64,000 nucleotides of DNA from Myxococcaceae bacterium (GTDB taxonomy: Bacteria > Myxococcota > Myxococcia > Myxococcales > Myxococcaceae), in contig DASRBA010000259.1 in NCBI GenBank assembly GCA_035637895.1, positions 6,714-70,713 of the forward strand, in the 5' to 3' direction. The notes under the pieces were generated by a model. The model was not told where the DNA came from, searched no databases, and saw only the letters and a list, made by a program, of their open reading frames with translations. Positions 18,328 through 31,733 of the stretch are shown here, one piece after another (positions within the stretch are counted from its first letter, which is position 1; the number at the start of each line of letters is the position of its first letter). Position numbers and translations under genes: made by a program.

Positions 18328-19227
18328 GTGAGAAAGGTCTATCGCAACTCAAGTTACTCCATCTACCTTGATGACTGCTTGGAGTGGTTGCCCCGCCAAA
18401 AGGCGAACACGTTCCATGCCGTAGTCACAGATCCTCCATTTAGCACGCTTGAGTACAGTGCAAAGGAATTGCGGAAACGTCGCCGAGGACCCGGAGGTGT
18501 ATGGCGACTTCCACAAGCATCAGATGGCGCAATCCGACAGCCCGTTCCAAGATTCACGATCCTGAGTGGACATGACCACATCGGGGTGCTGGCGTTCCAC
18601 TTGCGCTTAGCGCCAGAGCTTCACCGCGTGTTGGTGCCTGGCGCGCATGTCTTCATTGCGAGCCATCCCCTCCTGTCACATCTGGTCGCACAGGCGTTCG
18701 GCATGGCTGGATTCGAGACGCGTGGTCAGATTATCAGGATCGTCAAGACGCTGAGAGGAGGGGATCGGCCGAAGCCCGACGACAAAGACTACAGAGGTTT
18801 GTCAGTCATCCCAAAATCGTGCTTCGAGCCTTGGCTTCTCTTCAGAAAGCCATGCAAGGGACGCGTTGTAGACAACTTAAGGCGCTATGGAGTTGGAGCC
18901 CTTAAAAGGCCGAGCGAGAAGGAGCCCTTCGCGGATTTGCTCAGTGTCTCTCAGACAAGAGCTTCTGAGCGACAACTAGGGGATCACCCTTCCTTGAAGC
19001 CCCAAGAATTGATGCGAAAGCTCGTACGAGCAGCTTTACCACTTGGGCAGGGAACAATCCTCGACCCCTTCATGGGCGCGGGCTCGACCATTGCGGCAGC
19101 GACGAACTTGGGGCTGCGGAGTGTGGGGGTTGAAAGCGACAAGACTTACTACCGATTGGCCAAAAGAGCGATTCCGAAGCTAGCGTGGTTCGAGGTGCCA
19201 GAAAGACCAACGGCGACAGTTGACTAA
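18328..19227 (+). CDS. DNA methyltransferase, beta-class N6-adenine/N4-cytosine type (motif IV DPPF before motif I FxGxGS)
   Basis: GTG start preceded by GGAGAAG. AVVTDPPFS at residue about 33 and DPFMGAGSTIAAA near the C-terminus. GC is markedly lower than the surrounding genome. Confidence 0.88.
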   Translation: MRKVYRNSSYSIYLDDCLEWLPRQKANTFHAVVTDPPFSTLEYSAKELRKRRRGPGGVWRLPQASDGAIRQPVPRFTILSGHDHIGVLAFHLRLAPELHRVLVPGAHVFIASHPLLSHLVAQAFGMAGFETRGQIIRIVKTLRGGDRPKPDDKDYRGLSVIPKSCFEPWLLFRKPCKGRVVDNLRRYGVGALKRPSEKEPFADLLSVSQTRASERQLGDHPSLKPQELMRKLVRAALPLGQGTILDPFMGAGSTIAAATNLGLRSVGVESDKTYYRLAKRAIPKLAWFEVPERPTATVD

Positions 19228-19880
19228 ATGCGTTTGGGGCTAAGCAGGTCCATTTGCTCTGCTGATGCTTTGGGGGCTTCTTGCAAATACACCCAGTTCT
19301 TCCGTAATTTCGCGATGCCCTTTCGGTCGAGAGTAGCCGTTCGGGTACCCAATTCACCTCGTGAATTGCGCCGAAAGTCAGCCCTGGTGACCTGAGCCAA
19401 GTATATCTCGGTAAACGTCATCGGCTTGCGATCCACGGCGGGCTCGGTCTCCCGGTCGATGCTGTACACAAACACGCACATCCACTGGTCGCGCGCTCCG
19501 TGGGTGTCGACCGCACCTCCCATCTTCCTAGTGGTCTTGATTTTCAAGCCCTGGGCGCCAGCCTTCACGCTGTTGCGCGGATACACGCCTTGCACCACTA
19601 GGTCTGGGTGGCCATTGAAGTACTTATTTTGGACCAGTGTTCGAGAATGCTTCGCCAGGCTCGCTGCCAGCATGTCTGATAGCAGTCCGGACATAATTGC
19701 GGGGCGAAGTGTGTCGTCCAGGCGGTGAAGACCCTTGCGGGTGAGAAGGAGGTTAACGTCAGAAAAGAAGTCGTACACGTCCTGAAGAGCCAGCTCAAAA
19801 TCCTTCAGGCGAAGTTCATATGGAAGCGCTCTGCCGGTGTTGAAGCTGGATGGGTTCGGGGTGTTCTTAGTGATTGGCAT
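19224..19880 (-). CDS. Hypothetical protein, candidate restriction endonuclease cognate to the adjacent methyltransferase (assignment by position only)
   Basis: 218-aa ORF convergent with the MTase and overlapping it by 4 bp at the stops. Low GC like the MTase. No recognisable family motif. Confidence 0.55.
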   Translation of the reverse strand: MPITKNTPNPSSFNTGRALPYELRLKDFELALQDVYDFFSDVNLLLTRKGLHRLDDTLRPAIMSGLLSDMLAASLAKHSRTLVQNKYFNGHPDLVVQGVYPRNSVKAGAQGLKIKTTRKMGGAVDTHGARDQWMCVFVYSIDRETEPAVDRKPMTFTEIYLAQVTRADFRRNSRGELGTRTATLDRKGIAKLRKNWVYLQEAPKASAEQMDLLSPKRI

Positions 19881-20051
19881 ATTCGAGGGAGCCTATTCTG
19901 CTGGACCTCCGATTCTGGCATAACTTGGCTCCTTGGAGAACCCAGGTCTTTAGCTGTTGTCTCCGTTGCGGATGCGGCCAAGCGCGAAAGACGGTGCAAA
20001 GTCGTGGGAATTCAAGAGTCTGTGTCGAAAGTTCGCGGATTCCTCGAAAGC

Positions 20052-21296
20052 ATGTATCCGGGCACGAAGCCCTTTGCGCGAGTGCGTGCTGTCCTCGAGC
20101 GAGTCGCAACGTGGCCGGGAGGGCCCGTGGCGATCGTTCTTCAGGGGCCACCGGGCGTAGGAAAGACGACCGCCGCGCGCGCCCTCGCCGTCGCCCGCGC
20201 TATCGCCACTGTTGACCCCGAGGTGCTCAATCTGGGGGAGGATCGAGCTGCGAAGATGGTGTTGCGGGACATCGAGATCGGTTGGTACCGCTCCATTTCC
20301 CTGCCCGGCCTGACCCCGTCATTAGCCGACAGCCAACTCTTTGGCCTAAAACCCAAGGGCGCAACGGACGTAGCTCCGCGGATTGGGCTGTTCGAGCAGA
20401 CCATGACCGGCGCTCGGGCCGGTTCCGGTGAATCGCACCAAGCCCTCATCCAGGAGGCACAAAAGGAGCGGCGCCGTATCAATCTCGTCACTGGAGGAGT
20501 CGTCCTCCTCGACGAGATCGGCGATGCACCTGAATGGGTGCAATTGAAGCTGCTTCGTCTGCTCAACGGGGAGCGAGTGGCACGTGTGCAAGGGGAAGGA
20601 GATCCTGATTACGAATTCTGTTTTCGCGGCATCATCGTGCTTGCTACCTGGCGGGAGCTTGACGGGAACAATGGGCTGCGGCCGGACTTCAAGCAAAGAA
20701 TCATAAGCAATCGTCTTCGGATGCCCAGTCTCTCAGAGTATCCAATTGAGGCTCGGCAGCGACTCGTTGTCTCAGTCGTCGAGGGCTCCAAAACAGCTCG
20801 AAGCGAAGCCCTGGCAGAGTTGGAAGGACTGTTCAGTGGGGCGGATGACCCGATCGCAAGCTCCTACCGCCTCGCGCTAAGCAAATCGAGGACGCTGACG
20901 ACCGCGGAGGTCACTGAGATCGCGAGTCAGGACTGGAGCCAACTGAGTGAGTTGCGCGGGCTCCGGGCCATTGTGCAGAAGGTCTATGACGGGTCCTCGG
21001 TCAAGGAGGCAGTCGCTGAGATTACCGATGAACTCCAAGCGCCGCAGGAAGGTGCTGTCCAAGAAGAGGCCGATCTAGCCCGATTCAAGCGGTATCTCTC
21101 CATGCCCGTGCCGCTCGCCACCGCGTTGCGGCAAGACAGCGTCGAGTGGGCAGGCAGGGTCAATAAACAACTGACCGAGCGCACCCACCGCTTCGATGAA
21201 GCCATCAGGAGCAGCGGGAGGAAGCGCGCTCAGGTCAAGAAGGACCTCGAAAACCTCCGACGCTCAAAAGCGAGTGGTCGACGCACTCCCAAGTGA
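20052..21296 (+). CDS. AAA+ ATPase, sigma54-activator-like core without GAFTGA loop or obvious HTH. Start uncertain (ATG 20052, or GTG 20004)
   Basis: Walker A IVLQGPPGVGKTT; Walker B VVLLDEIGDAPEWVQLKLLRLLNGERVARV...IIVLATWREL...DFKQRIISNRLRMPSLSEYP follows the bEBP AAA+ pattern. The track ORF start at 19725 overlaps the convergent gene, so the start was trimmed. Confidence 0.75.
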   Translation: MYPGTKPFARVRAVLERVATWPGGPVAIVLQGPPGVGKTTAARALAVARAIATVDPEVLNLGEDRAAKMVLRDIEIGWYRSISLPGLTPSLADSQLFGLKPKGATDVAPRIGLFEQTMTGARAGSGESHQALIQEAQKERRRINLVTGGVVLLDEIGDAPEWVQLKLLRLLNGERVARVQGEGDPDYEFCFRGIIVLATWRELDGNNGLRPDFKQRIISNRLRMPSLSEYPIEARQRLVVSVVEGSKTARSEALAELEGLFSGADDPIASSYRLALSKSRTLTTAEVTEIASQDWSQLSELRGLRAIVQKVYDGSSVKEAVAEITDELQAPQEGAVQEEADLARFKRYLSMPVPLATALRQDSVEWAGRVNKQLTERTHRFDEAIRSSGRKRAQVKKDLENLRRSKASGRRTPK

Positions 21297-21393
21297 GTGG
21301 CCGAACATCCGAGGAGCTTCGCCAACCCAGTGGTTCTGGGGTCTTGCAGAGCCAGAATGGGAGGCCCGCTGGTTGCAATTCAGTGGTCGCGAG

Positions 21394-21849
21394 GTGGCGT
21401 GCGCGATGATCAAGGTCGACGATGGCGAGCTACTCAGCGACATCCTCAAATGGTCGGTTGCTGGATTTGGCACCGCCTTCGAGGTGGCGGTTCCCTCTTT
21501 CGAGCCCTCCGGGTTGTTCTCGCGGAGCATGATGCAGGCGGCCGCTCTCGGGACGCGGGTCCGATTCTTCACCCGCTGGCCGGAGGAGAAGGACAAGCAG
21601 GACGCCTTGGCCCAGTTGATGGCTCACGATGTGGCCGTGGTCATCGTCCCCCACCTTCAAGCCCAAGCGGCGCTGCTGACCGATGAGTCCACCGGCCTGT
21701 GGTACGGCTGGGTCGAAGGGGTCGCCTTCCTGGGCTGCGGCGACGCCGAGGCCGTGTTGCTTCGGGAACTGCTGGAGACGATCGAAGATTGGGAGAGGGC
21801 GGCTAGCCGCGAGGTGCGGCGGCGCGCCTTCCAGAGGCGGCTGAACTGA
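21394..21849 (+). CDS. Small hypothetical protein (start uncertain: TTG 21373, GTG 21394 or ATG 21406)
   Basis: ORF in the operon gap between the AAA+ gene (ends 21296) and the P-loop gene (starts 21882), with protein-like composition (WFWGLAEPEWEARWLQF...). The portion of the track ORF upstream of 21296 overlaps the preceding gene. Confidence 0.5.
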   Translation: MACAMIKVDDGELLSDILKWSVAGFGTAFEVAVPSFEPSGLFSRSMMQAAALGTRVRFFTRWPEEKDKQDALAQLMAHDVAVVIVPHLQAQAALLTDESTGLWYGWVEGVAFLGCGDAEAVLLRELLETIEDWERAASREVRRRAFQRRLN

Positions 21850-21881: not shown

Positions 21882-23036
21882 ATGCAGAAGCGGATGTCGG
21901 AGTGGTTCTTCCTGAAGGACGAGTTCAGTTCGTTCATCGTCGACGCGCAGAAGCATGCGCAGCACCTGTGTGGTGTCGAGGATCGCAAGCTGCGCGACGA
22001 CCTGGCCCTTTCTTTGAGGGAGTGTGCCTACTCGCAGCGGGGTCACCATGCGATCATTTGGGGCAACGCCGGTCGTGGAAAGACACATCTAGCCCACCAT
22101 CTGGTGGTCACCGCTGTCGACAACCAGGCCATCCTGCCCATCTACGTGGACTGTCCGCCGTTTCCGTCGGCTAAGGCACCGCTCCACATGTTCTTCGGGG
22201 CGCTCCTCAAGTCGATTCCCTGGAAGACAGTCAAGGACTTCGTGGGCAAATACCGCGCGAAGGCAGAAAACGACTCGACGCTTGAGAAGCGCGTCCAAGA
22301 TGTACTCCAAGCAGACACGAACATCTACGACGCGATGGTGGAGGGACTGGGGATGGGAAAGGAGTCCTCGATCCGGAGTACTCTGGGCTGGCTTGGGGGC
22401 GAGCCCGGTGGGAAGGTGAACGCCGCCCACGAGGCACCCGAGCAGTTCACGGACGAGGGGCAATTAGCTCGCAACATCGGCGCGTTGGGGGAGATGCTCC
22501 TCATCGCAGAGGGAAAGAACCTCATTTTCTTGGTGGACGAAGCAGAGCGCTTTCAGACGATTGCCAGCGGAGAGCGTTACTGGATCTGGCTCTCCGCGAT
22601 TCGCGAGCTCTTCCGCCGGCCAGCTGTGGGATTGATCCTCTTTATCATCGCTCGGAATCGCGACGATATTCCAAATATCCTCTGGGAGGACGAAATAAGC
22701 TCAGTTATCGGTGGCAACAATATTCATGAGTCGGCGAATTTCGCGCAGCCGAGCGCCGAGAGCTTCCTCAAGGATCTGCTAGACACAGTGGTCAAGCGCA
22801 GTCCGGCGCCCACCGAATTGCAGAAGATTGTGCAGGAGAAGGGCGAGTCTCTGGAGACGTATCCTTTCACAAAATCCGCCTTCGAAGAATTTATTGCCCA
22901 CCATTCAATAGGCACGCTGACGAATATTCCACGAGCCATTATCGGGAGCCTTGAGCACTGCGCTCGTCGCGCGATGACCCTTGACAAGAAGTTGATCGAC
23001 CATGACGTCCTACGCAGGGTGATCGAAGGGGTCTGA
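21882..23036 (+). CDS. P-loop NTPase (Walker A GNAGRGKT, Walker B IFLVDEAE), unknown family
   Basis: HAIIWGNAGRGKTHLAHHLV and LIFLVDEAERF. 384 aa. Confidence 0.8.
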   Translation: MQKRMSEWFFLKDEFSSFIVDAQKHAQHLCGVEDRKLRDDLALSLRECAYSQRGHHAIIWGNAGRGKTHLAHHLVVTAVDNQAILPIYVDCPPFPSAKAPLHMFFGALLKSIPWKTVKDFVGKYRAKAENDSTLEKRVQDVLQADTNIYDAMVEGLGMGKESSIRSTLGWLGGEPGGKVNAAHEAPEQFTDEGQLARNIGALGEMLLIAEGKNLIFLVDEAERFQTIASGERYWIWLSAIRELFRRPAVGLILFIIARNRDDIPNILWEDEISSVIGGNNIHESANFAQPSAESFLKDLLDTVVKRSPAPTELQKIVQEKGESLETYPFTKSAFEEFIAHHSIGTLTNIPRAIIGSLEHCARRAMTLDKKLIDHDVLRRVIEGV

Positions 23037-23052: not shown

Positions 23053-24414
23053 ATGGCCAGGATTAGAGTGGAATGCGAGCCGCGCATCACCTGGGATCCC
23101 GTCGTCGGCGGTCCGGGTGAGCAGTACGTCCACCTTGGCGCGGTCATCGACAGCGGGCGCCGCCGGACGGTCAAGTTTGACGCCGATGGGAATTTCGTCG
23201 TCTTGGAGGTCGGAAAACGAGGGAGTGGGAAGTCATTCGGATTGGGTTCGATTATGGAGGCCTTCGCCGCCGCCGCTGACACGTGCACCATTGCCAAGCA
23301 GAGCCCGAACCGGCGGGGTGTCCTGCTCTTGGACCCGCTGGATGTGCATTGGACCGCCATCTACCCCGTCCGGAAGGATGGTTCGGTCCACATGCAGGAG
23401 CAATACAAACTCCTGGAGCGTTTTCCAGAGGTCGCGGTCGAACCCATCAATGTCGCAGTGTACATGCCCGCCGGACGAGGTCGACCCGAGGACCCTGCTG
23501 TCTTCCGGGCATACCACCTTCCTGTCTGCGACCTCACGTCGGAGGACTTCGCGTTGCTCTACGGCGCGAACCTGGTGAGTGACCCGGCAGGAATGCTGAT
23601 TGGGGAAATCCACGACAAGGTGAGCCGGTTGGGGTTCACCCGAGGCGCCACCGACGTTCCTGCCAAGGAGGTCTTTGGCCTCCAGGACCTCATCGATTGC
23701 TTGCAGGATACGGACATACAGGCCAACTACACAGTGCAGACTCTGCGAGCCGTCCGGCAGCGCCTGCTGTCCTGGCTTCGCGATCCGCTTTTCCAACAGC
23801 CCTCCGGGACCCCGGTGACGGAACTGGTCCAGCCGGGGCGAATGGGCATCTTATGCCTCAACCGCCTCTCGGAAGAGATGCGTAACGTGGTCACCGCCGT
23901 CATCGTCCGGCGGCTCAAGGCGGATCGGAGCCGGGCGAGCAACCTGGAGCGTGATCGCGCCTTCAATCCGCACCCCCTCAATAGACCTGCGGGGTTACCG
24001 CGGACGATCCTAGCCATCGACGAGGCCCAAATGATCCTGCCGGCGACGGGAAATAGCCACGCGCGGAGCGCAATCGAGTCCTATGTCCTCGAAGGTCGAA
24101 ACTTCGGGCTCTCGATCTGGATGGCTACCCAACGGCCGCGAGGGGCCATCTCGGAAAGAGCTAAGAGCCAGATCGACACGCTAATCGTCCACAAACTATC
24201 CACGGCGGAGGATCTGGAGGCCGTGGCGGGTCTCCTCCAGTCTGCGGAGCCCCTCAAAATTAAGGTCAACGAGTCGGTGGTCCCCCTAGCAGAATTGACG
24301 CGCAGCCTCGATGTGGGGATGGCCATCGTCTCCAGCGGGAACGGGAACGTCCATCGCGCCTTCGTGGTCGAGATGCGGCCACGGGTCGTCGCCCACGGTG
24401 GCCAGGCGTTCTGA
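23053..24414 (+). CDS. HerA/FtsK-superfamily (DUF87-like) ATPase
   Basis: Walker A VGKRGSGKSFG, Walker B ILAIDEAQ, and the characteristic IWMATQRP...DTLIVHKL (ATQRP / arginine-finger region) seen in HerA/VirB4-like translocases. Confidence 0.8.
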   Translation: MARIRVECEPRITWDPVVGGPGEQYVHLGAVIDSGRRRTVKFDADGNFVVLEVGKRGSGKSFGLGSIMEAFAAAADTCTIAKQSPNRRGVLLLDPLDVHWTAIYPVRKDGSVHMQEQYKLLERFPEVAVEPINVAVYMPAGRGRPEDPAVFRAYHLPVCDLTSEDFALLYGANLVSDPAGMLIGEIHDKVSRLGFTRGATDVPAKEVFGLQDLIDCLQDTDIQANYTVQTLRAVRQRLLSWLRDPLFQQPSGTPVTELVQPGRMGILCLNRLSEEMRNVVTAVIVRRLKADRSRASNLERDRAFNPHPLNRPAGLPRTILAIDEAQMILPATGNSHARSAIESYVLEGRNFGLSIWMATQRPRGAISERAKSQIDTLIVHKLSTAEDLEAVAGLLQSAEPLKIKVNESVVPLAELTRSLDVGMAIVSSGNGNVHRAFVVEMRPRVVAHGGQAF

Positions 24415-24426
24415 CGAGGACCGGCC

Positions 24427-25707
24427 ATGCTCATCCCCCGTTTCTGCAACTACTACACCGATTACCAGCAGCGCTTGGGCTTCCTGAAGGTCTTGGCGAG
24501 AACGGGCGAAGGTGTGCGCGGGGGCCACGATCAGTACGTCGCTCGGCTAGAAGAACTCTACAACACTCGCGGCGCACGCCGGGGAAATCGACGGGCTGTT
24601 TTCGATCCGGAAGCGTTGCTTCAGCGCACTGAGATCCCCTCTTGGCAGGTGGGCTTCTACAAGCCTTACCTCGGACGCCTGGTCAACTGGGGCGAGATGT
24701 GCGGAATCATCGCCGCCAACGGCCGCCTCTCTGAATGGGCGCGCATCCTACTCATCATTGGCAAGGAACAATCGGAAGAACGAAAAGAAAACCCATTCAT
24801 CCTCTCCGAAGTCGAACGGGCCTTCTTCCTCCAACTCTTGTTGGTCCACGACCAGGTGCTGCGGGACCTGATCGTCAGCTTGGGCCAGCGTGCCCCAGGA
24901 ACACGGCTTGGCGTGCTGGAGAGTTGCTTGGTCACGCTGGATGCCCTGGGCTCCTTCGCTGACGGTATTCAAGGGCCAGGTATTGAGGCGGTGCAACTGC
25001 GCGTTGAGTTGCGCAACCTCCTCGAGCGCATCGCCAGAAAGTGGAAATTCGACCGTACGGCGTTCATGTCGCCAGACCGCCGGGCGGAGGCGCTGGCTGC
25101 CGTTCGGGAGGAGGGTTCACGAAGGAAACCACGCAACCGGTTGCTGGAGATGAACGCCATCTGCCGCTTCGAACAGCTCACCGACCTAGGCTTGCTGGTC
25201 AAGGAGCCCGCGGGCCGACGAGACTTAACTGGTGAGCAACGGCGCGCCGTGCGGACGGGGTGGGACTGGGAGGTGGCTCCTGGCCTGAACGACATGGCCT
25301 ACCGGCTCGCCTCGAACGCGTCGATAACAGAGATCCTCACCCACCATTGGATCGAGGTGTCGACCTGTGGGATGGGACCGGCACCACTAAAGGAGCTCCA
25401 GAAGGCGGAACTGGTCGAGGTACTGGATCGCGTGTTGCCGATGGCGCGTCGGCAGCTGGGGCCGGTCCAGGTCCATACCTGGGCGACGCTCGCTTCGCTG
25501 GAGGCGCTGCGCGGCCATGGCCGGCTGGAGATTGGCCAGGTCCACGAACTATTGGACGCACTGCAGCGAGATCCTGGCGCTGGCGACGTCATCCGGCAGG
25601 GCGGACGGCCGGATTTCTTGGGGCGGACCGCAGTGGTCTCCAGGGGTGGCTTGTCCTCGCTTCTTAGCTCCCATGGATCCGAGCGGCGAGGAGGCGACCG
25701 TGTCTGA
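24427..25707 (+). CDS. Hypothetical protein (defence-operon component, no recognisable domain)
   Basis: 426-aa ORF starting 13 nt after the HerA-like stop, with protein-like composition. Confidence 0.7.
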   Translation: MLIPRFCNYYTDYQQRLGFLKVLARTGEGVRGGHDQYVARLEELYNTRGARRGNRRAVFDPEALLQRTEIPSWQVGFYKPYLGRLVNWGEMCGIIAANGRLSEWARILLIIGKEQSEERKENPFILSEVERAFFLQLLLVHDQVLRDLIVSLGQRAPGTRLGVLESCLVTLDALGSFADGIQGPGIEAVQLRVELRNLLERIARKWKFDRTAFMSPDRRAEALAAVREEGSRRKPRNRLLEMNAICRFEQLTDLGLLVKEPAGRRDLTGEQRRAVRTGWDWEVAPGLNDMAYRLASNASITEILTHHWIEVSTCGMGPAPLKELQKAELVEVLDRVLPMARRQLGPVQVHTWATLASLEALRGHGRLEIGQVHELLDALQRDPGAGDVIRQGGRPDFLGRTAVVSRGGLSSLLSSHGSERRGGDRV

Positions 25708-26488
25708 TGAGTTTCACACCGCATGGATGGCCAGAATGCAGCAGGCAGAAAGAACGGCAAAGGACGTCATCGACATCTGCTCGAAGCTCCCGGCGAACCC
25801 CTTTGAGGCCCGAGCGCGCCTCCACAGTACCGCCAGCAAGCTCGAAGCGTCAGGCTTGCGTCCGCTGGCTCCCCCGATGGACTTGGTGCGCCATGTTGAG
25901 GACGAATGCGTGCGGGCGCGGGCTGAGTTCTGGGACCAGATGGCCGAGGCCTGCCGCCGCAAGGAATGGCCGATCGACGGCTCCACAAACCGGCGCCTGG
26001 TGGGTCGAGGGCTGATAATTGAGCTAACCGACGACGAAGTGCGCATCGATGAGATTTCACTCCGCCTTTCTCCTCACGCAGCTTCGGTGGTGGAGGTAAT
26101 CGCTGGCGAGGTCAGCGCATTGGTGCCGACGGACTTCAACCCTGAAAGATATATGGCCTTGCTGGTAACGGCTTACGACGCGGCCCCGGGCGGAGTGGAG
26201 AAGCCGCTGGAGGCGGTCTACCGAGCTGCCGTCTTTGCTTCTCAGAAGTCGGCGTTCTGGAAGGGGCTCAACCCGGACCATTTCGTGCGGTTAACGCGTC
26301 CCGCGTTCCGGGCGCGACTGGCCCGCTTGCTTCATCTTGGCACACGGACCGCAGACGGGCGGGAGATCAGGTTTGGGAGCACTGTCGTCGCAAAGGACGC
26401 CTGGGAAGTCTATTCCCCTGGCGAGGAACGGCTAGTACAGGTCGGCCGTATCTCGTTGGGTTACGCAGGTAGCCAACATGAACATTGA
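25673..26488 (+). CDS. Hypothetical protein (start uncertain: ATG 25673 overlapping the upstream gene, or ATG 25727)
   Basis: ORF continuing the operon. Its 3' end overlaps the next gene's start by 11 nt. Confidence 0.65.
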   Translation: MDPSGEEATVSDEFHTAWMARMQQAERTAKDVIDICSKLPANPFEARARLHSTASKLEASGLRPLAPPMDLVRHVEDECVRARAEFWDQMAEACRRKEWPIDGSTNRRLVGRGLIIELTDDEVRIDEISLRLSPHAASVVEVIAGEVSALVPTDFNPERYMALLVTAYDAAPGGVEKPLEAVYRAAVFASQKSAFWKGLNPDHFVRLTRPAFRARLARLLHLGTRTADGREIRFGSTVVAKDAWEVYSPGEERLVQVGRISLGYAGSQHEH

Positions 26489-27785
26489 CCAAGTTGATGA
26501 GTCGGAAGCGCGGCGAATCCTCCGTTCACTGCGCTCAGGTGCCACGCCCACTCAGTACGCCAGTCAGATCTTCGTAGGGCAGGGACCCTGGTTCGATACC
26601 GCGCGGAAGATGATGCACGACACCGCAATAGATGAGGACTTTGAGGTGCGGTTCCTCCGAGCCGCCTACGGCGGCGGCAAGACACTGTTCCTCCGCTGCC
26701 TCGAGGAGGCGGCCCGGGCCGACGGATGGGTCACGGCTTACGTACTCCTCAAGCAGGGCTCTGTGGAGTTGGACAAGTTCGACACGTGGGTGCGAGAGGT
26801 GGCACGCACCGTTGAGTTTCCTGACGCAAGCCGAGGGATGAACACTCTGCTAGAGCGGGCGATGGCTACGCACCTGAAGTCCCACGGCTATGATCCTAGC
26901 CGTGCTACTTCCTTGAATGTCCTGGAGCGCGCCGGAGAGGGCCTCGCGAAATTCTGCCGCGGGAGGGCGCTCGAATACGATTTCTCCTTAGCCCTACGTG
27001 CGACCCTCGAGGCCCGCTTTGAGCGTGACGAAATTCGACTCCATGAGATTGCCAAGTGGCTGAGTGGAGGATCTGAGAGACTGGCGGTCGACCCCGCCCG
27101 TTTCGGTTCGAACCCGCACCGCCCGGCTACGCGAGCTGGAGCAGTCCAGCTGAAACAGCTAGGACCGGGGACGGCCGATCAGTTGCTCCGGCTCCTGGCT
27201 CTGCTGACGAAGATGAGCGGGCAAAAGGGCCTGATGCTTTCCTTCGATGAGGTCGAATTGATCGGCACGCTTCCGGAGAAGCGATTGAAAATTGCACTCC
27301 AGACGCTTCGGGAGTTGGTCGATCACACGGATCCGGCTCTGGAACCGCCCTCGACGTGCCTGTTCGTGGCCGCGACGCCAGAGATGTTCGAGAGCCCGAG
27401 GATGCTGCCCAGTTACAAAGCGCTCCAGGACCGAGTCGACAAGCTTCCCACCTCGCGGCGTGGTCCCCCTAATCTGCGCGGTACGGTGATTGACCTCGAC
27501 GCGACCGAGTTAGGCGAAGGCGACCTCGCGGCACTGGCAGAGCGCATCATGGCGCTGTACCGGAAGAGCGGGGAGGACGTGCCTCCCAACTTGGATGGGC
27601 AGCTAAAGGAGTTGGTCAAGACCATCACGGTACGTCGCTACAGCATCGCCCGGCCGCGACTCTTATGCCGGTGCCTGCTTGACATCTTAGACGGCAAGTT
27701 CGGGGCCGACATGCCCCAGGAGATCGCTGCCAGGAACGAGCAGATGACGAAGGAACGTCAGACAGAGATGAGGGTTAAGGCGTGA
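26478..27785 (+). CDS. P-loop ATPase, BrxD/DUF2791-like (family recalled, not searched)
   Basis: N-terminal EARRILRSLRSGATP box followed by Walker A AAYGGGKTLFL and Walker B LMLSFDEVE. 435 aa. Confidence 0.75.
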   Translation: MNIDQVDESEARRILRSLRSGATPTQYASQIFVGQGPWFDTARKMMHDTAIDEDFEVRFLRAAYGGGKTLFLRCLEEAARADGWVTAYVLLKQGSVELDKFDTWVREVARTVEFPDASRGMNTLLERAMATHLKSHGYDPSRATSLNVLERAGEGLAKFCRGRALEYDFSLALRATLEARFERDEIRLHEIAKWLSGGSERLAVDPARFGSNPHRPATRAGAVQLKQLGPGTADQLLRLLALLTKMSGQKGLMLSFDEVELIGTLPEKRLKIALQTLRELVDHTDPALEPPSTCLFVAATPEMFESPRMLPSYKALQDRVDKLPTSRRGPPNLRGTVIDLDATELGEGDLAALAERIMALYRKSGEDVPPNLDGQLKELVKTITVRRYSIARPRLLCRCLLDILDGKFGADMPQEIAARNEQMTKERQTEMRVKA

Positions 27786-28855
27786 GTAGCCGCGACTCCT
27801 CTGCCCGACGGATCGTCCGCGCGCTGCGAAGCGGCGTAGCCAGTCCAGAGTCAGTGGTTCGCATGAAGATCGGAAGCGAGGAGATCGAGGCCCAGTTTAA
27901 TGCCGCGTTCGACGCCTTCCTGCAGGGCGGTCAGACGCCCGGCCCGATACTTTTAGAAGGCGACTGGGGGTCGGGGAAAACACACATCAAAACGCTGCTG
28001 CGCCATGAAATGCGGCGCCGCCAGATTCCGCATGTAGCAACCGCTCTTGGCCGTTACCAAGGCTCTCTGGCCCACCTGCACTTGACTGTGCCACAGTGGC
28101 TCACAACGGTCGACTTCGGGGGCGCGCGTGGACTGCGCGCCGCCCTGGACGCTGGCATTCTGTCTCCGGGCGGCACCCACGCCTGGGCCAATACTAAGGT
28201 CACGCCCTTCGCGGAAGGCTTACGATGGGCGTTAGGGGGCTGGGACGAGGCTGGTTGGCTGCGTGCGCTCGGACATTGCTACGCCATGCCGAACCAAGGC
28301 TACCAGCACTGGAAGGCGCTCGACTTAGTATTGTCGGCCGGGGAGTACGTGGCGACGGTCGGTGGAAGGGGAATCGCCCTCCTTTTGGACGAGGCCGAAA
28401 ACGTCTGCTTACAGCACGACATCAGGGGACGGAGGCGTAGCTACGATGCGCTGCGCCGGCTGTATCTCAGTCAACACTTCCTATTAACCTTGTTCGTGAC
28501 GGCACGGTTTCTCGATCAGGTTCAACAGGACTGGAGGCAGGGCCTGGCCTCGGGCTGGGTCTACTGGACGGAGGAGGCTCGTGAATTCGTCTCGAATCTG
28601 CGCCACATGACGCGCTTGAAGACGCCGGCCCTGAGGCTGAGCGACGCCAAGGAGTTGGTGCGGCGCATTCATGCTGTCTACCAGGAAGCATACGGGCCCA
28701 TTTCGTTCGCTACCTCGGAGGCGGACATCCTCCGGGCGTGGACGCGGACCCCAACTCACTCCGTGCGACTGTTGATCCGCTTGACCGTCAGCGATCTGGA
28801 CGTTGCGGCCGGGGTAACATCGACACGGACTCTAAATGAAGAGTCGGTTGCCTAG
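27782..28855 (+). CDS. P-loop ATPase, paralog of the preceding BrxD/DUF2791-like gene
   Basis: Same N-terminal box SARRIVRALRSGVASP, Walker A GDWGSGKTHIK, Walker B IALLLDEAE. 4-nt overlap (ATGA) with the upstream paralog. Confidence 0.75.
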   Translation: MSSRDSSARRIVRALRSGVASPESVVRMKIGSEEIEAQFNAAFDAFLQGGQTPGPILLEGDWGSGKTHIKTLLRHEMRRRQIPHVATALGRYQGSLAHLHLTVPQWLTTVDFGGARGLRAALDAGILSPGGTHAWANTKVTPFAEGLRWALGGWDEAGWLRALGHCYAMPNQGYQHWKALDLVLSAGEYVATVGGRGIALLLDEAENVCLQHDIRGRRRSYDALRRLYLSQHFLLTLFVTARFLDQVQQDWRQGLASGWVYWTEEAREFVSNLRHMTRLKTPALRLSDAKELVRRIHAVYQEAYGPISFATSEADILRAWTRTPTHSVRLLIRLTVSDLDVAAGVTSTRTLNEESVA

Positions 28856-29146: not shown

Positions 29147-30028
29147 TTATGCACCGAGCGTAGCAAGCAGCGGGATGGCACGGGTGGCGGTGTCGAAATG
29201 GGTGGCGTCCAGTTCAATGCCGATGCTGCGGTAGCCAACCGCGACGGCGGCGGCAATGGTGGAACCTGCGCCCATGAACGGGTCCAAGACAACGCCCTCA
29301 CCGAGCGGCAGCGCGGCGCGAACGAGCTGGCGCATGAGAGCCTGCGGCTTGAGCGACGGGTGGGGCGCGATGGCGCGCTCCTTCTTGTGGGTGGGCGAAG
29401 ACCGGATAACGTCGACGAAAGGTGCATCCTCCGAGATGCGGCGGAGGCCGCCAGTCTTCCACTTGCGGAGGTTGTCTTGGACGCGGCCTTCGCAGGGCTT
29501 GCGGAACAGGCCCCAGGGCTCCCAACAGGAGCGAGGCATCACGGTGACGTTGGCGAACTCCTCGTGTGCGTTTTTGGGACGGTCGCCACCGCGGAGGGTC
29601 TGCACGAGGCGGATGATCTCCCCACGCTTCTCGAAGCCAGCACCCGTTAGCGCTTGGTAAAGGACATGCGAAAGCAGTGGGTTCGTGGCGATAAACATGT
29701 GGGCGCCGGGAACGAGCACGCGGTAGGCGCGCACAGCGAAGTCTGCGAAGAATCGTCCCAGTGCCTCAAGGTCATCGACCGTAAGCACGGTGAAGCGCGG
29801 CAGGGGACTTCGCCTGGAGCCGTCGAATGACGGAGGAATCCGCCAGACGCCGCCGCGGTCTCGCCGGAGCTTCTCCTGCTCCCGCGCAGAGTACTCCTTC
29901 AGACCATACGGTGGGTCAGTGACAATTGCGTGGATGGAGTCGGGTGGTTGCGCGTCCATCCACCCCAAACAGTCTCCTTGGTGGATGGTGTGGCTGGCAT
30001 CGAACGCTAGCGCGGCCAGAGCGGTCAT
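29147..30028 (-). CDS. DNA methyltransferase, beta-class N6A/N4C type, paralog of the 18328..19227 MTase and in inverted orientation
   Basis: AIVTDPPYGL (motif IV) and DPFMGAGSTIAAA (motif I). Collinear with MTase-1 along the whole length at about 55% identity by eye (RDRGGVWRIP, LPRFT, RVLVPGAHMFIA, NPLLSH, LRGGDRPK, HPSLKPQ, LVRAALPLG). Confidence 0.88.
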   Translation of the reverse strand: MTALAALAFDASHTIHQGDCLGWMDAQPPDSIHAIVTDPPYGLKEYSAREQEKLRRDRGGVWRIPPSFDGSRRSPLPRFTVLTVDDLEALGRFFADFAVRAYRVLVPGAHMFIATNPLLSHVLYQALTGAGFEKRGEIIRLVQTLRGGDRPKNAHEEFANVTVMPRSCWEPWGLFRKPCEGRVQDNLRKWKTGGLRRISEDAPFVDVIRSSPTHKKERAIAPHPSLKPQALMRQLVRAALPLGEGVVLDPFMGAGSTIAAAVAVGYRSIGIELDATHFDTATRAIPLLATLGA

Positions 30029-30064: not shown

Positions 30065-30526
30065 TTAATTTCCGTAGTGACCTTCCTCAAAGTCCCAGAT
30101 TCCCCCTTGCTCGCCCTGTTCCAGGACCGAGTAGACGGCATGGACGTCGGCCTGCGGGGGGACATCGACCGCCCGGAGACATCCAGATCCCTGCTCAAAA
30201 GTGCATCCTAGCTCCGACAGCCGCGCCCACCACTCCCCGACTCGGCCGGCTTCGGCATCGTTGTTGAGCATGACGCGGTAGGTGGAGTGGCCGCCGCGGA
30301 TCGACACACTTTCGAACTCGAACAGCCCGTCCGCAGGGTGCGCAAAGACGACGTCTTCTGCGCTCACCCCGAAGGCGTAGAACGGCACGTTGCGAAGTCG
30401 CAGTCGGCGCTCGTCGATGCGTTCCGCCCAGAGTGTCTCGGTCGCTGAGCCATGCCATGCCCCCGGCTCCAACTGGAACCGCACCTTCACGAGATCGCCT
30501 TCGGCACGGTGGTGATCGGCCGTCAT
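30065..30526 (-). CDS. Candidate immunity protein for the upstream HNH toxin (DUF4265-like, recalled)
   Basis: 153-aa ORF whose start overlaps the toxin's stop by 4 nt. Acidic, Trp-containing composition (ETLWAERIDERRLRLRNVPFYAFG). Confidence 0.55.
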   Translation of the reverse strand: MTADHHRAEGDLVKVRFQLEPGAWHGSATETLWAERIDERRLRLRNVPFYAFGVSAEDVVFAHPADGLFEFESVSIRGGHSTYRVMLNNDAEAGRVGEWWARLSELGCTFEQGSGCLRAVDVPPQADVHAVYSVLEQGEQGGIWDFEEGHYGN

Positions 30527-31692
30527 TTGGCACCTTGGAGGTGCTCTTCCGTGGTCTTTGCGCCCTTCTCCAAATTACAAGTCCGACAGGTGTTCTGAGC
30601 GTTGTCGATCGTGTTGTTTCCTCCCCGCGACTTGGGCTGAGCGTGGTCCGTGTTCCGTTGGCTCGGTCCTGGTTCGTCGGTGGTCTCCTTGCCACAGAAC
30701 ACGCATTTCCCATCCGCGTGGGACTCAGCAGCGTCCTTGGTCTGTGGAGAGAATCTCTTGCCCGCTCCGGGTCCGCCGGACGCTCCCGCCTTGGGACCAG
30801 CGGACATGGCCACCGCGCCGCCGAGGTCGATGACCACGCTCCCATTCGCCGCGAGCGTGAGGGAGCGGGTGCCTTCAATTTCGGGAATCCGGAAGCCTTG
30901 TGCCTCCGCCAGCGCGGCAGCTCTCGAGCCTCCGGGGAGGTCGAGGGCGCTTCCCTTGAACAGCCCCGCGAACTTGGCGACGCCATACGTGGCGACCATC
31001 ACCACGATGCGCCCCACCGTTGGGCCCATGCGCTGTCCGTAGTGGATGCCGGCCACTCGGACGCCCGCGAAGTCCCGAGCGAGCTTCAGTTCGTCCAGCA
31101 TGGAGATGAAGCCCTTCACCACATTGTTGAAGACGTCCACCCCCACGAAGGCGATCAGGTTGCTCATCGAGACCATGAACAGAATCTTCGTGACCGGCTC
31201 AGGAGAGAGCAGTTCCACGATCATCCCCAGGAACAGCACGCTCAACATCGCGCGCACCTGGTCAGCGGTCATGGAACGGACCGCGGAGGCCGCATCCTCC
31301 AGTGCCTCAGCGAACGCGAAGTGCAGGGCTACGAAGGTGGCGCCTTCGTCATCCAACTCGCCTGAGGCGTTCAGGTCGTCCCAGCAATCGAACCGCTTGC
31401 CGGTGATGTGGTGGCACCACCGGAGGTACCCCTCGGCCTTGAGCCGCTGCATCGGGTCATCGCCAGCGAGGATGAACCGCGGTCTTCCGTTCTTCGGCAG
31501 ACCAGGAAGCGGGCCGTTGGCGTACAGCATCCGCATCCCTTGCTGGAGCTCCTCGCGGCTGAGGTCCACGGGCTTGTATCCGCCCGGACGGATGACCAGC
31601 ACCGACGGCGCAGAGACACGGCGTTGCTGGACCGGCAGCCCAGGAATGGCCGTCGAGCAAGCGCACAGGAAGGTGACCACCCACACAGCCAT
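30523..31692 (-). CDS. Lipoprotein polymorphic-toxin-like protein with C-terminal HNH nuclease domain
   Basis: Start trimmed to the ATG at 31692, giving MAVWVVTFLCACSTA (lipoprotein signal). The C-terminus CVFCGKET...DHAQPKSRGGNNTIDNAQNTCRTCNLEKG is a classic HNH (C..C...DH..P.S.GG.N..N....C..CN..K). Confidence 0.72.
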   Translation of the reverse strand: MAVWVVTFLCACSTAIPGLPVQQRRVSAPSVLVIRPGGYKPVDLSREELQQGMRMLYANGPLPGLPKNGRPRFILAGDDPMQRLKAEGYLRWCHHITGKRFDCWDDLNASGELDDEGATFVALHFAFAEALEDAASAVRSMTADQVRAMLSVLFLGMIVELLSPEPVTKILFMVSMSNLIAFVGVDVFNNVVKGFISMLDELKLARDFAGVRVAGIHYGQRMGPTVGRIVVMVATYGVAKFAGLFKGSALDLPGGSRAAALAEAQGFRIPEIEGTRSLTLAANGSVVIDLGGAVAMSAGPKAGASGGPGAGKRFSPQTKDAAESHADGKCVFCGKETTDEPGPSQRNTDHAQPKSRGGNNTIDNAQNTCRTCNLEKGAKTTEEHLQGAK

Positions 31693-31733
31693 GGTCTTCG
31701 GCCAGCCGAGCATGCCGGCATTATGGTCTACGC

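What the first reader, a model, noticed from the sequence alone, without database searches (positions are those of the whole stretch)
26478..28855. Tandem paralogous P-loop ATPases sharing an RR-I-R-x-LRSG N-terminal box (BrxD/DUF2791-like) with 4-nt overlap
Both proteins start with (A/R)RRI(L/V)R(S/A)LRSG, then GxxGxGKT and a hhhhDExE Walker B. The 21882..23036 product has a similar GNAGRGKTH Walker A and may be a third, more distant member. Duplicated ATPases of this kind suggest a hetero-oligomeric machine. Only one copy is known in BREX, and it is there accompanied by PglZ/PglX, which are missing here.
Basis: partly seen in the sequence, partly recalled or inferred. Interest (0 to 1): 0.6.

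Follow-up and report, generated by a model that had tools for sequence, protein, structure and literature searches.

The report
BrxD-like ATPase pair in HerA cassette
The two overlapping ATPase genes are real, anciently diverged relatives of the BREX protein BrxD. They are the last two genes of a rare, apparently undescribed eight-gene cassette that looks like a switch-controlled anti-plasmid/anti-phage system, and in this genome its predicted nuclease has lost its active site.

Summary
ORFs 26478-27785 (I) and 27782-28855 (J) overlap by GTGA, share the N-terminal box, and keep Walker A and DExE Walker B motifs. Both pass Pfam PF10923. Neither reaches the BrxD equivalog cutoff (106 and 26 bits against 350).

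I and J are ancient paralogs. BLASTP aligns only the box, but profile comparison aligns them end to end (96.5%, E 9e-10). The 21882-23036 product (E) is a third relative.

They are not a BREX remnant. They close a conserved eight-gene cassette, found in about 17 loci (all with named organisms are MAGs, seven phyla):
- C: sigma-54-type activator
- D: small PLD nuclease
- E: ORC-like ATPase
- F: HerA/FtsK translocase
- G: FokI/BrxA/SspB-like multi-winged-helix DNA reader
- H: unknown protein
- I and J

A -24/-12 sigma-54 promoter precedes the operon in most loci. I-J adjacency holds in 21 of 21 loci. No PglZ or PglX occurs anywhere.

Best reading: an inducible HerA-based "capture"-type defence system related to BREX-related capture systems, DndFGH and MADS. 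I and J would form a hetero-oligomeric AAA+ loader or scaffold. Function is inferred, not shown.

In this window the PLD has lost HxK and GSxN. I found no description of the cassette. Verdict: new variant of a known kind.

The parts
20001..21296 (+). C: sigma-54-type AAA+ activator (bEBP-like) with no N-terminal sensor domain. The start is approximate: the ORF opens at 19725, but homology begins near 20031.
   Evidence: PF00158 38.9 bits against GA 20.2. RtcR/PspF-type PADLOC models match at 2.7e-10. The motif context DSQLFG...KGATDV...GLFEQ is bEBP-like, but GAFTGA is degenerate here. It is intact in L005 and reads GAYTGA in L001.
21362..21377 (+). Sigma-54 -24/-12 promoter-like element, AGGCCCGCTGGTTGCA, ending 28 nt upstream of the D start codon.
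   Evidence: Score 17.5 of 19.5; expected 0.01 such sites per 205 nt. Equivalent elements sit 12-69 nt upstream of the first operon gene in L001, L003, L006, L008, L009, L011 and L015 (L002 has only a weak one, 0.10 expected by chance). They sit upstream of C in L005, L016, L019 and L020.
21406..21849 (+). D: small PLD-family (HKD) nuclease homolog, with the active site lost in this copy.
   Evidence: Homologs hit PF13091 PLDc_2. Eleven other members keep LH(A/T)K and SxNxT (ten, L028). The window has LQAQ and a 15-residue deletion. The window protein has no Pfam hit.
21882..23036 (+). E: ORC/Cdc6/DnaA-clade AAA+ ATPase, the third and more distant relative of I and J. It lacks the N-terminal box.
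   Evidence: Weak AAA_22, AAA_16 and nSTAND3 hits. hhalign to J gives 95.7%, E 1e-8. Weak DnaA, Cdc6 and TnsC matches in PDB. GRGKTH and DEAE are invariant.
23053..24414 (+). F: HerA/FtsK-family hexameric translocase. It is the most conserved gene of the cassette.
   Evidence: PADLOC mad8 4.8e-16 and several HerA models. The PDB profile search hits anti-phage HerA 9c1m (4e-14), 8xau, 4d2i, FtsK and DptH. Walker A, Walker B and EGRN...ATQRP are invariant. Its nearest plasmid relative is the HerA of a BRC-like locus.
24427..25707 (+). G: multi-winged-helix DNA-recognition protein of the FokI/BrxA/SspB type. It evolves fast.
25673..26488 (+). H: protein of unknown function, with long N-terminal helices plus winged-helix-like subdomains. 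It overlaps G by 35 nt and I by 11 nt.
26478..27785 (+). I: BrxD-like (DUF2791) AAA+ ATPase, full-length family match, catalytically complete.
   Evidence: PF10923 118 bits over residues 8-405. NF033438 106 bits against 350. 89 homologs at 30-63% identity, all PF10923. GGGKT is at least 90% conserved; DE-E, T300 and R394 are invariant.
27782..28855 (+). J: second, shorter DUF2791-related AAA+ ATPase, catalytically complete, with a GTGA overlap onto I.
   Evidence: PF10923 40.3 bits, N-terminal region only. hhalign to I spans the full length. The family is small: 149 cluster representatives at E<=1e-3 among 1.84 billion. R16, G18, G63, G65, K66, D203, E204, E206, R217, R329 and R333 are invariant.
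18328..19880 (.). Flanking N4/N6 DNA methyltransferase (18328-19227, +) and a convergent restriction-enzyme-like gene (19224-19880, -). Possibly linked to the cassette in this lineage.
   Evidence: PF01555 and PADLOC MTase_II 1e-92; weak REase_II. The same MTase plus opposite-strand gene lies upstream of C in the close JGI relative.
29147..30028 (-). Second N4/N6 methyltransferase, 56% identical to the first, convergent on J.
   Evidence: PF01555. BLASTP 5e-117.

Best explanation
I and J are two anciently diverged, catalytically intact ORC/Cdc6-clade AAA+ ATPases of the DUF2791 (BrxC/BrxD) superfamily. They are produced together through a translationally coupled H-I-J sub-operon. They are the terminal genes of a horizontally acquired eight-gene cassette, C-D-E-F-G-H-I-J.

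Proposed working, all steps inferred:
1. The cassette-encoded sigma-54 activator C switches on the D-J operon from a -24/-12 promoter.
2. G, a FokI/BrxA/SspB-like multi-winged-helix protein, reads DNA, possibly together with H.
3. The three ORC-like ATPases E, I and J assemble on that DNA as a hetero-oligomeric loader or scaffold. This would recruit or load the HerA/FtsK ring F, which reels in foreign DNA.
4. The PLD nuclease D cuts the DNA.

This is a 'HerA/FtsK capture'-type anti-mobile-element system in which PLD stands where PglZ or a restriction endonuclease stands in related systems. In this particular genome the PLD active site is destroyed, so this copy is probably disarmed or repurposed.
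For: Cassette conservation:
- The full C-J order, or a permutation of it, is present in every locus long enough to show it. That is about 17 distinct loci from Myxococcota, Acidobacteriota, Planctomycetota, Alphaproteobacteria, Gemmatimonadota, Actinomycetota and Nitrospirota.
- I-J adjacency holds in 21 of 21 loci with sequence downstream of I.
- The I/J start-stop overlap of 4-11 nt is kept in 8 called loci.
- Rearrangements break only between G and H or before D: L001 is split into two divergent operons, and L007 reads H-I-J-D-E-F-G.

Family assignments:
- I and J.
- E.
- F.
- G.
- D.
- C plus the sigma-54 promoters.

Defence context:
- The cassette lies in a low-GC island (0.56-0.65 against 0.69-0.76 in the rest of the window).
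- Neighbouring genes include RM genes, Dcm-Vsr pairs, GmrSD_N, a NERD helicase, dpd-like genes, relaxases and an integrase.
- The HerA plus DndG/BrxA-like pairing also occurs in DndFGH, MADS (Mad8/Mad7) and BRC systems (PMC10853773; PMC12839542).
- BrxD is proposed to load or activate its partner helicase BrxHI (PMC12839542).
- An Aulosira plasmid carries a tandem BrxD-like pair followed by a DEAD-box helicase.
Against: - There are no experimental data for any member.
- All genome-collection hits are MAGs; the other loci are unbinned metagenome contigs. No locus comes from a cultured organism, so nothing is known about phenotype.
- The hetero-oligomer and loader roles are pure inference. No multimer prediction could be run.
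- The sigma-54-contacting GAFTGA loop is degenerate (xATxV) in most C proteins, including this one. Direct activation of sigma-54 by C is therefore uncertain.
- D is missing in L009 and L020, truncated in L006 and dead in this window. The nuclease is evidently dispensable or often lost.
- A methyltransferase lies next to the cassette in only about 9 of 20 loci, and these are of two unrelated types. Self/non-self discrimination is unexplained.
- Apart from the mad8/HerA hits on F and the BrxD and SngB hits on I (weak BrxD on J), no component gets more than a marginal (E > 1e-3) defence-system hit in PADLOC; the remaining matches are regulator or generic P-loop models.
Confidence: 0.58

Rival explanations
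1. The pair is a remnant or duplicated fragment of a BREX type 2 or type 6 system that has lost pglZ and pglX.
For: Both proteins match PF10923 and the BrxD models of NCBIfam and PADLOC. G resembles BrxA structurally.
Against: - Scores are far below the BrxD equivalog cutoff: 106 and 26 bits against 350.
- No PglZ, PglX, PglW or BrxHI occurs in the island or in any of about 17 related loci.
- The same eight genes recur in seven phyla, which a decaying remnant would not do.
Confidence: 0.03
2. The cassette serves a mobile element itself rather than host defence. ORC/Cdc6-like initiators plus an FtsK/HerA pump and DNA-binding proteins would act as a replication, partition or DNA-transfer module of an integrative element.
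For: - ORC/Cdc6 and TnsC-like ATPases and FtsK-like pumps are used by plasmids, transposons and actinomycete conjugation (general knowledge; weak TnsC and DnaA matches).
- Some loci lie near a relaxase or an integrase.
- The cassette sits in a low-GC island.
Against: - No integrase, transposase, relaxase or replication gene is conserved with the cassette, and the flanks differ in every locus.
- The window island has no integrase or tRNA.
- A PLD nuclease and a fast-evolving FokI/BrxA-like reader are typical of restriction-type systems.
- There are no viral or plasmid copies.
Confidence: 0.14
3. It is a sigma-54-controlled stress or DNA-repair system of the host, analogous to Psp or Rtc, not directed at foreign DNA.
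For: - A PspF/RtcR-like activator without a sensor domain, plus a conserved sigma-54 promoter.
- HerA works in double-strand-break repair in archaea (PDB 4d2i hit).
Against: - Very sparse, patchy distribution across phyla, with a low-GC signature of horizontal transfer.
- Frequent gene loss or decay.
- Closest relatives of F, G, I and J are all in defence systems.
Confidence: 0.1
4. Whatever the family does, the copy in this window is no longer a working system, and the I-J pair here is a relic under relaxed selection. This is not exclusive of the best explanation.
For: The only predicted nuclease has lost His and Lys of HxK and the GSxN segment. Its closest relative, at 53% identity, keeps both. 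D is also lost or truncated in other loci.
Against: The other seven genes are intact and full length, with every catalytic residue of C, E, F, I and J preserved. The sigma-54 promoter is retained. An in-frame deletion with a preserved fold-core alignment may mean an inactive structural subunit rather than decay.
Confidence: 0.3

Closest known systems
BrxD of BREX types 2 and 6 (NCBIfam NF033438; Pfam PF10923)
   Same: Same superfamily and the same stand-alone ORC/Cdc6-type AAA+ architecture. It has the N-terminal A-R-R-I-x-x-L-R-x-G box, Walker A, DExE Walker B and a C-terminal helical bundle. I matches the BrxD model over its full length. BrxD is also tightly paired with a DNA motor, BrxHI (PMC12839542).
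   Different: Scores are 106 and 26 bits against the 350-bit equivalog cutoff. There are two divergent copies plus a third relative instead of one. The partner motor is HerA/FtsK, not an SF2 helicase. No PglZ, PglX or PglW is present.
BREX-Related Capture (BRC) system of Rakesh & Krishnan 2026 (PMC12839542)
   Same: It combines a HerA/FtsK translocase, BrxC/D-type ORC/Cdc6 ATPase(s), a BrxA/DUF4007-like tripartite winged-helix reader and a further P-loop NTPase. F's nearest plasmid relative is the HerA of a Haloplanus locus that combines a BrxC-like ATPase, HerA and a GNAT gene, as BRC systems do.
   Different: There is no PglZ; a PLD nuclease takes its place. There is no large DUF6079/BrxC; three small ATPases take its place. 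There is no GNAT or TGT. The cassette adds a sigma-54 activator and protein H.
HerA/FtsK-Orc/Cdc6 'capture systems', DndFGH, and MADS Mad7/Mad8
   Same: The HerA-type ATPase is encoded next to a fast-evolving multi-winged-helix protein of the DndG/SspB/FokI type, together with Orc/Cdc6 ATPases and a nuclease (PMC10853773). F hits the PADLOC mad8 model at 4.8e-16. Mad7 is DndG-like and Mad8 is HerA-like.
   Different: The described Orc/Cdc6 versions carry an inserted inactive REase and pair with an active REase. Here there is no REase, but a PLD. There is no DndF/Mad6 kinase and no Type I-like methylase or specificity genes.
Shango SngB and the tandem BrxD-like pair on Aulosira laxa plasmid AP018310
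   Same: These are DUF2791-type ATPases outside BREX, coupled to a DNA motor. The PADLOC SngB model hits I at 8.7e-11. The Aulosira locus has two adjacent box-bearing BrxD-like genes followed by a DEAD-box helicase.
   Different: The partner there is an SF2 helicase, and in Shango also a TerB protein (from memory, not tested here). There is no HerA, PLD, G-like reader or sigma-54 activator.

Membership tests
BrxD (BREX type 2/6 ATPase, NCBIfam NF033438 equivalog) | Whole-protein score at or above the curated equivalog cutoff (350 bits) | tested here: not met
   I scores 106.3 bits and J 26.3 bits.
BrxD (BREX type 2/6 ATPase, NCBIfam NF033438 equivalog) | Encoded in a BREX locus with PglZ, PglX and the BrxHI helicase | tested here: not met
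   None of these occur in the island or in the Pfam-annotated related loci.
DUF2791 / BrxC_BrxD superfamily (Pfam PF10923) | Match above Pfam's gathering score (22.2 bits) | tested here: met
   I scores 118 bits over residues 8-405. J scores 40.3 bits, N-terminal region. J aligns to I over its full length by hhalign.
DUF2791 / BrxC_BrxD superfamily (Pfam PF10923) | N-terminal (A)RRxIxxLRxG box ahead of the VG(R/T/Q)E motif and Walker A | tested here: met
   The box is present and conserved in both families. The same box occurs in ten unrelated DUF2791 proteins.
Active AAA+ ATPase (ORC/Cdc6/DnaA initiator clade) | Intact Walker A Lys, Walker B acidic pair, sensor-1 polar residue and sensor-2 Arg | tested here: met
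   Conserved or invariant (at least 90%) in I (G65-T69, D257, E258, T300, R394), J (K66, D203, E204, T240, R329/R333) and E (K67, D219, E220). Clade assignment rests on weak DnaA/Cdc6 matches and on the literature classification of BrxD.
HerA/FtsK-Orc/Cdc6 capture systems (PMC10853773) | HerA/FtsK ATPase plus a DndG/SspB/FokI-type multi-wHTH protein in one operon | tested here: met
   F. G. The genes are adjacent in all loci.
HerA/FtsK-Orc/Cdc6 capture systems (PMC10853773) | Orc/Cdc6 ATPase with an inserted inactive REase, and an active REase effector | tested here: not met
   No REase family hit in C-J. E, I and J are 357-435 aa without an extra domain. The nuclease is PLD-type.
BREX-Related Capture (BRC) system (PMC12839542) | PglZ effector and DUF6079 (BrxC-like, four-domain) ATPase | tested here: not met
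   Neither is found in any locus.
BREX-Related Capture (BRC) system (PMC12839542) | HerA/FtsK universally present, with a BrxA/DUF4007-like tripartite DNA binder | tested here: met
MADS (PADLOC mad1-8) | Mad6 kinase, Mad7 and Mad8 all present (the mandatory genes in the authors' model) | tested here: not met
   Only mad8 is hit, by F at 4.8e-16. There is no kinase and no mad7 hit.
Sigma-54-dependent operon with a bacterial enhancer-binding protein | AAA+ sigma-54 interaction domain (PF00158) above the gathering score | tested here: met
   38.9 bits against 20.2. Also met in homologs.
Sigma-54-dependent operon with a bacterial enhancer-binding protein | GAFTGA loop that contacts sigma-54 | tested here: not met
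   The window has KGATDV. GAFTGA occurs only in L005 and GAYTGA in L001. The others have xATxV.
Sigma-54-dependent operon with a bacterial enhancer-binding protein | -24 GG / -12 GC promoter upstream of the regulated operon | tested here: met
   Window 21362-21377. The same position holds in seven other loci, with a chance expectation of 0.005-0.03 each. The element lies upstream of C in four loci of the second subfamily.
PLD-superfamily (HKD) nuclease | HxK...GSxN catalytic motif | tested here: not met
   The window D has LQAQ and lacks the GSxN segment. Eleven homologs keep both.

The most novel reading that the evidence does not exclude
The cassette is a previously unrecognised, sigma-54-gated anti-mobile-element system. 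A hetero-oligomer of three ORC/Cdc6-type ATPases (E, I, J), two of them BrxD-like, acts as an origin-recognition-style loader. It places a HerA/FtsK ring onto foreign DNA chosen by a FokI/BrxA-like reader, and a PLD nuclease acts as executioner. This would give BrxD-family proteins, whose role in BREX is still unknown, a general function as motor loaders.
Probability: 0.35. Interest if true: 0.75.

Novelty: new variant of a known kind. Interest (0 to 1): 0.55.

Why it matters
BrxD-type ATPases are among the least understood BREX components, and no structure or activity is known for them. I found no solved relative by sequence.

Here two distinct BrxD-like proteins and a third ORC-like ATPase are locked into one operon with a HerA/FtsK motor. 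Elsewhere a similar tandem pair sits next to a helicase. Together these point to a testable general role: hetero-oligomeric loaders or regulators of DNA motors in immunity.

The cassette also extends the 'HerA capture' and BREX-related group of systems with a PLD effector. It carries a dedicated sigma-54 switch, which I did not find reported for defence operons in a limited full-text search.

If an intact version protects against phages or plasmids, it adds a new multi-ATPase system from poorly sampled soil and freshwater phyla.

Tried and rejected
- **BLASTP of I against J:** only the box aligns. Paralogy needed profile comparison.
- **PDB sequence searches:** profiles of G, H and I found nothing usable.
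- **Pfam scan of 52 G homologs:** no DUF4007 or BrxA hit at E<=1.
- **afdb50 fold library:** unavailable.
- **Aulosira 279-aa gene as an H homolog:** not supported (Prob 3.5%).
- **MADS membership:** rejected, because there is no kinase and no mad7 hit.
- **BREX remnant:** rejected (see rivals).
- **Phage origin:** rejected. There are no viral contigs and no PHROG hits for D, E, G, H, I or J.
- **Island boundaries:** no tRNA and no convincing direct repeats.
- **Sigma-70 promoter and terminator scans:** not above shuffled expectation.
- **dN/dS between the window and its closest relative:** considered and dropped. At about 60% protein identity, synonymous sites are saturated.
- **Literature:** searches for DUF2791, BrxD, HerA capture systems, and sigma-54 with anti-phage terms found no description of this cassette.

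Full report
**Observation**

The junction reads ...aaggcGTGAgtagc, so the GTG start and TGA stop overlap by 4 nt.

Both proteins open with the box: EARRILRSLRSG in I and SARRIVRALRSG in J. Both have a P-loop, AAYGGGKT in I and GDWGSGKT in J. Strictly, the first is AxxGxGKT. Both have an hhhhDExE Walker B.

BLASTP aligns only the box (E 0.003). By pairwise identity, the word 'paralogous' is therefore weak. Other evidence is stronger:
- Both pass Pfam PF10923 BrxC_BrxD. I scores 118 bits over residues 8-405. J scores 40.3 bits, mainly over residues 7-82.
- A profile-profile comparison of the two families, built from seven or eight cassettes, aligns 343 columns from end to end (Prob 96.5%, E 9e-10).
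- The 21882-23036 product (E) is related to J at 95.7% (E 1e-8) and to I at 74.6%.

**BrxD or not**

Neither protein is a BrxD equivalog. NF033438 gives 106 and 26 bits against a curated cutoff of 350.

The N-terminal box is a signature of the whole DUF2791 superfamily. Ten unrelated DUF2791 proteins, recovered as weak N-terminal hits of J, carry A-R-R-x-I-E-x-L-R-x-G-V-P-S at the same position. These also score only 33-77 bits on the BrxD model.

I has 89 homologs at 30-63% identity, all about 430 aa. J's family is small: 149 cluster representatives at E<=1e-3 among 1.84 billion.

Every catalytic residue is conserved (invariant or in at least 90% of members) in both families:
- I: the GGGKT P-loop (at least 90% conserved), and invariant D257, E258, E260, T300 and R394.
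- J: G63, G65, K66, D203, E204, E206, R217, R329, R333.

Both should therefore be active ATPases. This is not an active/inactive pair.

**The real unit**

Gene neighbourhoods of I homologs show one conserved cassette. So does an HMM map of 25 fetched loci. The window coordinates are:

| Gene | Window coordinates | Assignment |
|---|---|---|
| C | about 20001-21296 | sigma-54-type AAA+ activator |
| D | 21406-21849 | small PLD-family protein |
| E | 21882-23036 | ORC/AAA_16-like ATPase |
| F | 23053-24414 | HerA/FtsK-like ATPase |
| G | 24427-25707 | multi-winged-helix DNA reader |
| H | 25673-26488 | unknown |
| I | 26478-27785 | BrxD-like ATPase |
| J | 27782-28855 | second BrxD-like ATPase |

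A scan of one genome per species found 17 loci, all in MAGs. They come from:
- Acidobacteriota
- Myxococcota
- Planctomycetota
- Alphaproteobacteria (Sphingopyxis, Sphingomicrobium, Phenylobacterium)
- Gemmatimonadota
- Actinomycetota (Acidimicrobiaceae)
- Nitrospirota (Nitrospira)

The window itself is a Myxococcaceae MAG contig.

I and J are adjacent in every locus that has sequence downstream of I. In eight called loci their start and stop overlap by 4-11 nt. H overlaps or abuts I in the same way.

Rearrangements cut only between G and H or before D. L001 has C-D-E-F-G and H-I-J as divergent operons. L007 has H-I-J-D-E-F-G. H-I-J therefore behaves as one sub-module and D-E-F-G as another.

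**Components**

- **F** is a HerA/FtsK translocase. It hits PADLOC mad8 at 4.8e-16 and several HerA models. Its profile hits anti-phage HerA structures, Sulfolobus HerA, FtsK and DptH. Walker A, Walker B and the EGRN...ATQRP motif are invariant.
- **H** (pLDDT 85) has long N-terminal helices and winged-helix-like subdomains. It has no significant structural neighbour.
- **D** homologs hit PLDc_2 and keep LHAK...SxNxT.
- **C** passes PF00158 and has the bEBP motif context ESQLFG...GxFE. The GAFTGA loop is intact only in L005. It reads GAYTGA in L001 and xATxV elsewhere, including here.

**Sigma-54 control**

A -24/-12 element (TGGCAY-N5-TTGCW) lies 12-69 nt upstream of the first operon gene in the window (21362-21377) and in L001, L003, L006, L008, L009, L011 and L015. 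L002 has only a weaker element, with 0.10 expected by chance. The chance expectation is 0.005-0.03 per locus.

In the second subfamily, C abuts D. There the element sits about 100-280 nt upstream of C instead, in L005, L016 (19 of 19.5), L019 and L020.

The promoter position follows the operon structure in this way. That is the strongest argument that C is the cassette's own sigma-54 activator, despite the odd loop.

**Context**

The cassette lies in a low-GC island at about 18.2-31.7 kb (0.56-0.65 against 0.69-0.76 in the rest of the window). Its neighbours are:
- an N4/N6 methyltransferase with a convergent restriction-like gene;
- a second methyltransferase that is 56% identical to the first;
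- a DUF4265/HNH pair.

Elsewhere the neighbours include Dcm-Vsr pairs (seven loci), GmrSD_N, a NERD helicase, DndB/TGT genes, relaxases and an integrase. No flanking gene is universal.

There are no viral copies and no PHROG hits for D, E, G, H, I or J. No PglZ or PglX occurs in any locus.

**Comparison with known systems**

The HerA plus multi-wHTH pairing recurs in three described groups:
- DndH/DndG;
- MADS Mad8/Mad7;
- the Orc/Cdc6-HerA 'capture systems' (PMC10853773) and the BREX-Related Capture system (PMC12839542).

F's nearest plasmid relative is the HerA of a Haloplanus locus resembling BRC (BrxC-like 1363-aa ATPase, a hypothetical gene, HerA and GNAT).

The present cassette fails the defining features of each group. 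It has no PglZ or DUF6079, no REase or inactive-REase insertion, and no kinase. It adds a PLD, three small ORC-type ATPases, H and a sigma-54 switch.

BrxD in BREX type 2 forms a tight dyad with the BrxHI helicase and is proposed to load or activate it. An Aulosira plasmid carries two adjacent box-bearing BrxD-like genes followed by a DEAD-box helicase. This supports the inference that BrxD-like ATPases partner DNA motors.

I found no paper describing this cassette. Of its eight proteins, only F and I get strong defence-component hits in PADLOC; J gets a weak one.

**Mechanism (inferred)**

1. C turns on D-J.
2. G, perhaps with H, selects DNA.
3. E, I and J assemble as a hetero-oligomeric ORC-like loader or scaffold for the HerA ring F.
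4. F translocates the DNA and D cleaves it.

What is shown: gene content, conservation, coupling, motif integrity, folds and promoter elements. What is not shown: any interaction, any activity, any phenotype.

**State of this copy**

The window's D has HLQAQAALL where its 53%-identical nearest relative has RLHAKAALL. It also lacks 15 residues that include GSHNLT. The PLD active site is therefore gone.

D is also absent in L009 and L020 and truncated in L006. All other genes here are intact. This copy may be disarmed, or D may be an accessory subunit.

**Verdict**

- The BrxD-like assignment and the 'machine' intuition are partly right.
- The BREX framing is wrong.
- The feature is a new variant of the HerA-capture and BREX-related kind of system, rare and uncharacterised.
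- The function assignment has moderate confidence.

Noticed in passing
window 21406-21849: The cassette's PLD-like gene has lost the catalytic HxK (LHAK became LQAQ) and a 15-residue segment with GSxN. Its closest relative (L028, 53% identity) and ten others keep both.
   Followed up: yes
window 18328-19227 (+) and 29147-30028 (-): Two N4/N6 DNA methyltransferases, 56% identical, flank the cassette in inverted orientation. The first is convergent with a restriction-enzyme-like gene (19224-19880, -). The same methyltransferase plus opposite-strand gene sits upstream of C in a close JGI relative (contig of sample 3300050046).
   Followed up: partly
L001, L003, L005, L016, L018, L019, L024 (flanks of the cassette): C5 cytosine methyltransferases lie within a few kb of the cassette in seven loci, with a Vsr gene beside them in six (none detected in L016). 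They appear on either side and in either orientation. About half of the loci have no methyltransferase nearby. This could be a facultative modification partner or simply defence-island company.
   Followed up: partly
window 20001-21296 and homologs: The sigma-54-type activator has a conserved but non-canonical L1 loop (xATxV instead of GAFTGA) in most cassettes. Yet good -24/-12 promoters are conserved in those same loci.
   Followed up: partly
window 30065-31746 (-): A DUF4265 protein (30065-30526) and a 407-aa protein with a C-terminal HNH nuclease domain (30523-31746) overlap by 4 nt in the same low-GC island. They look like a toxin/immunity pair.
   Followed up: no
L027 (Aulosira laxa plasmid AP018310) 7145-12539: Next to a BREX type-2-like block (PglZ-like, BrxD, helicase) lies a second module: a 279-aa protein, two adjacent box-bearing BrxD-like ATPases and a DEAD-box helicase.
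   Followed up: partly
L026 (Haloplanus sp. HW8-1 plasmid NZ_CP098519) 2237-10145: A BRC-like locus (AAA ATPase, 1363-aa BREX ATP-binding protein, hypothetical gene, HerA-like ATPase, GNAT) holds the nearest plasmid relative of the cassette's HerA.
   Followed up: partly
L025 10004-13820: In a Terriglobia MAG the I gene is split by an insertion of about 1.6 kb. J follows, but no C-H genes lie upstream. This is probably a decayed remnant.
   Followed up: no
L006/L013 4789-5133 and 7919-9221; L015: Other cassettes show damage. In L006 D is truncated and G is split in two. In L015 there are several frameshifts in C, F, I and J, which may be assembly errors.
   Followed up: no
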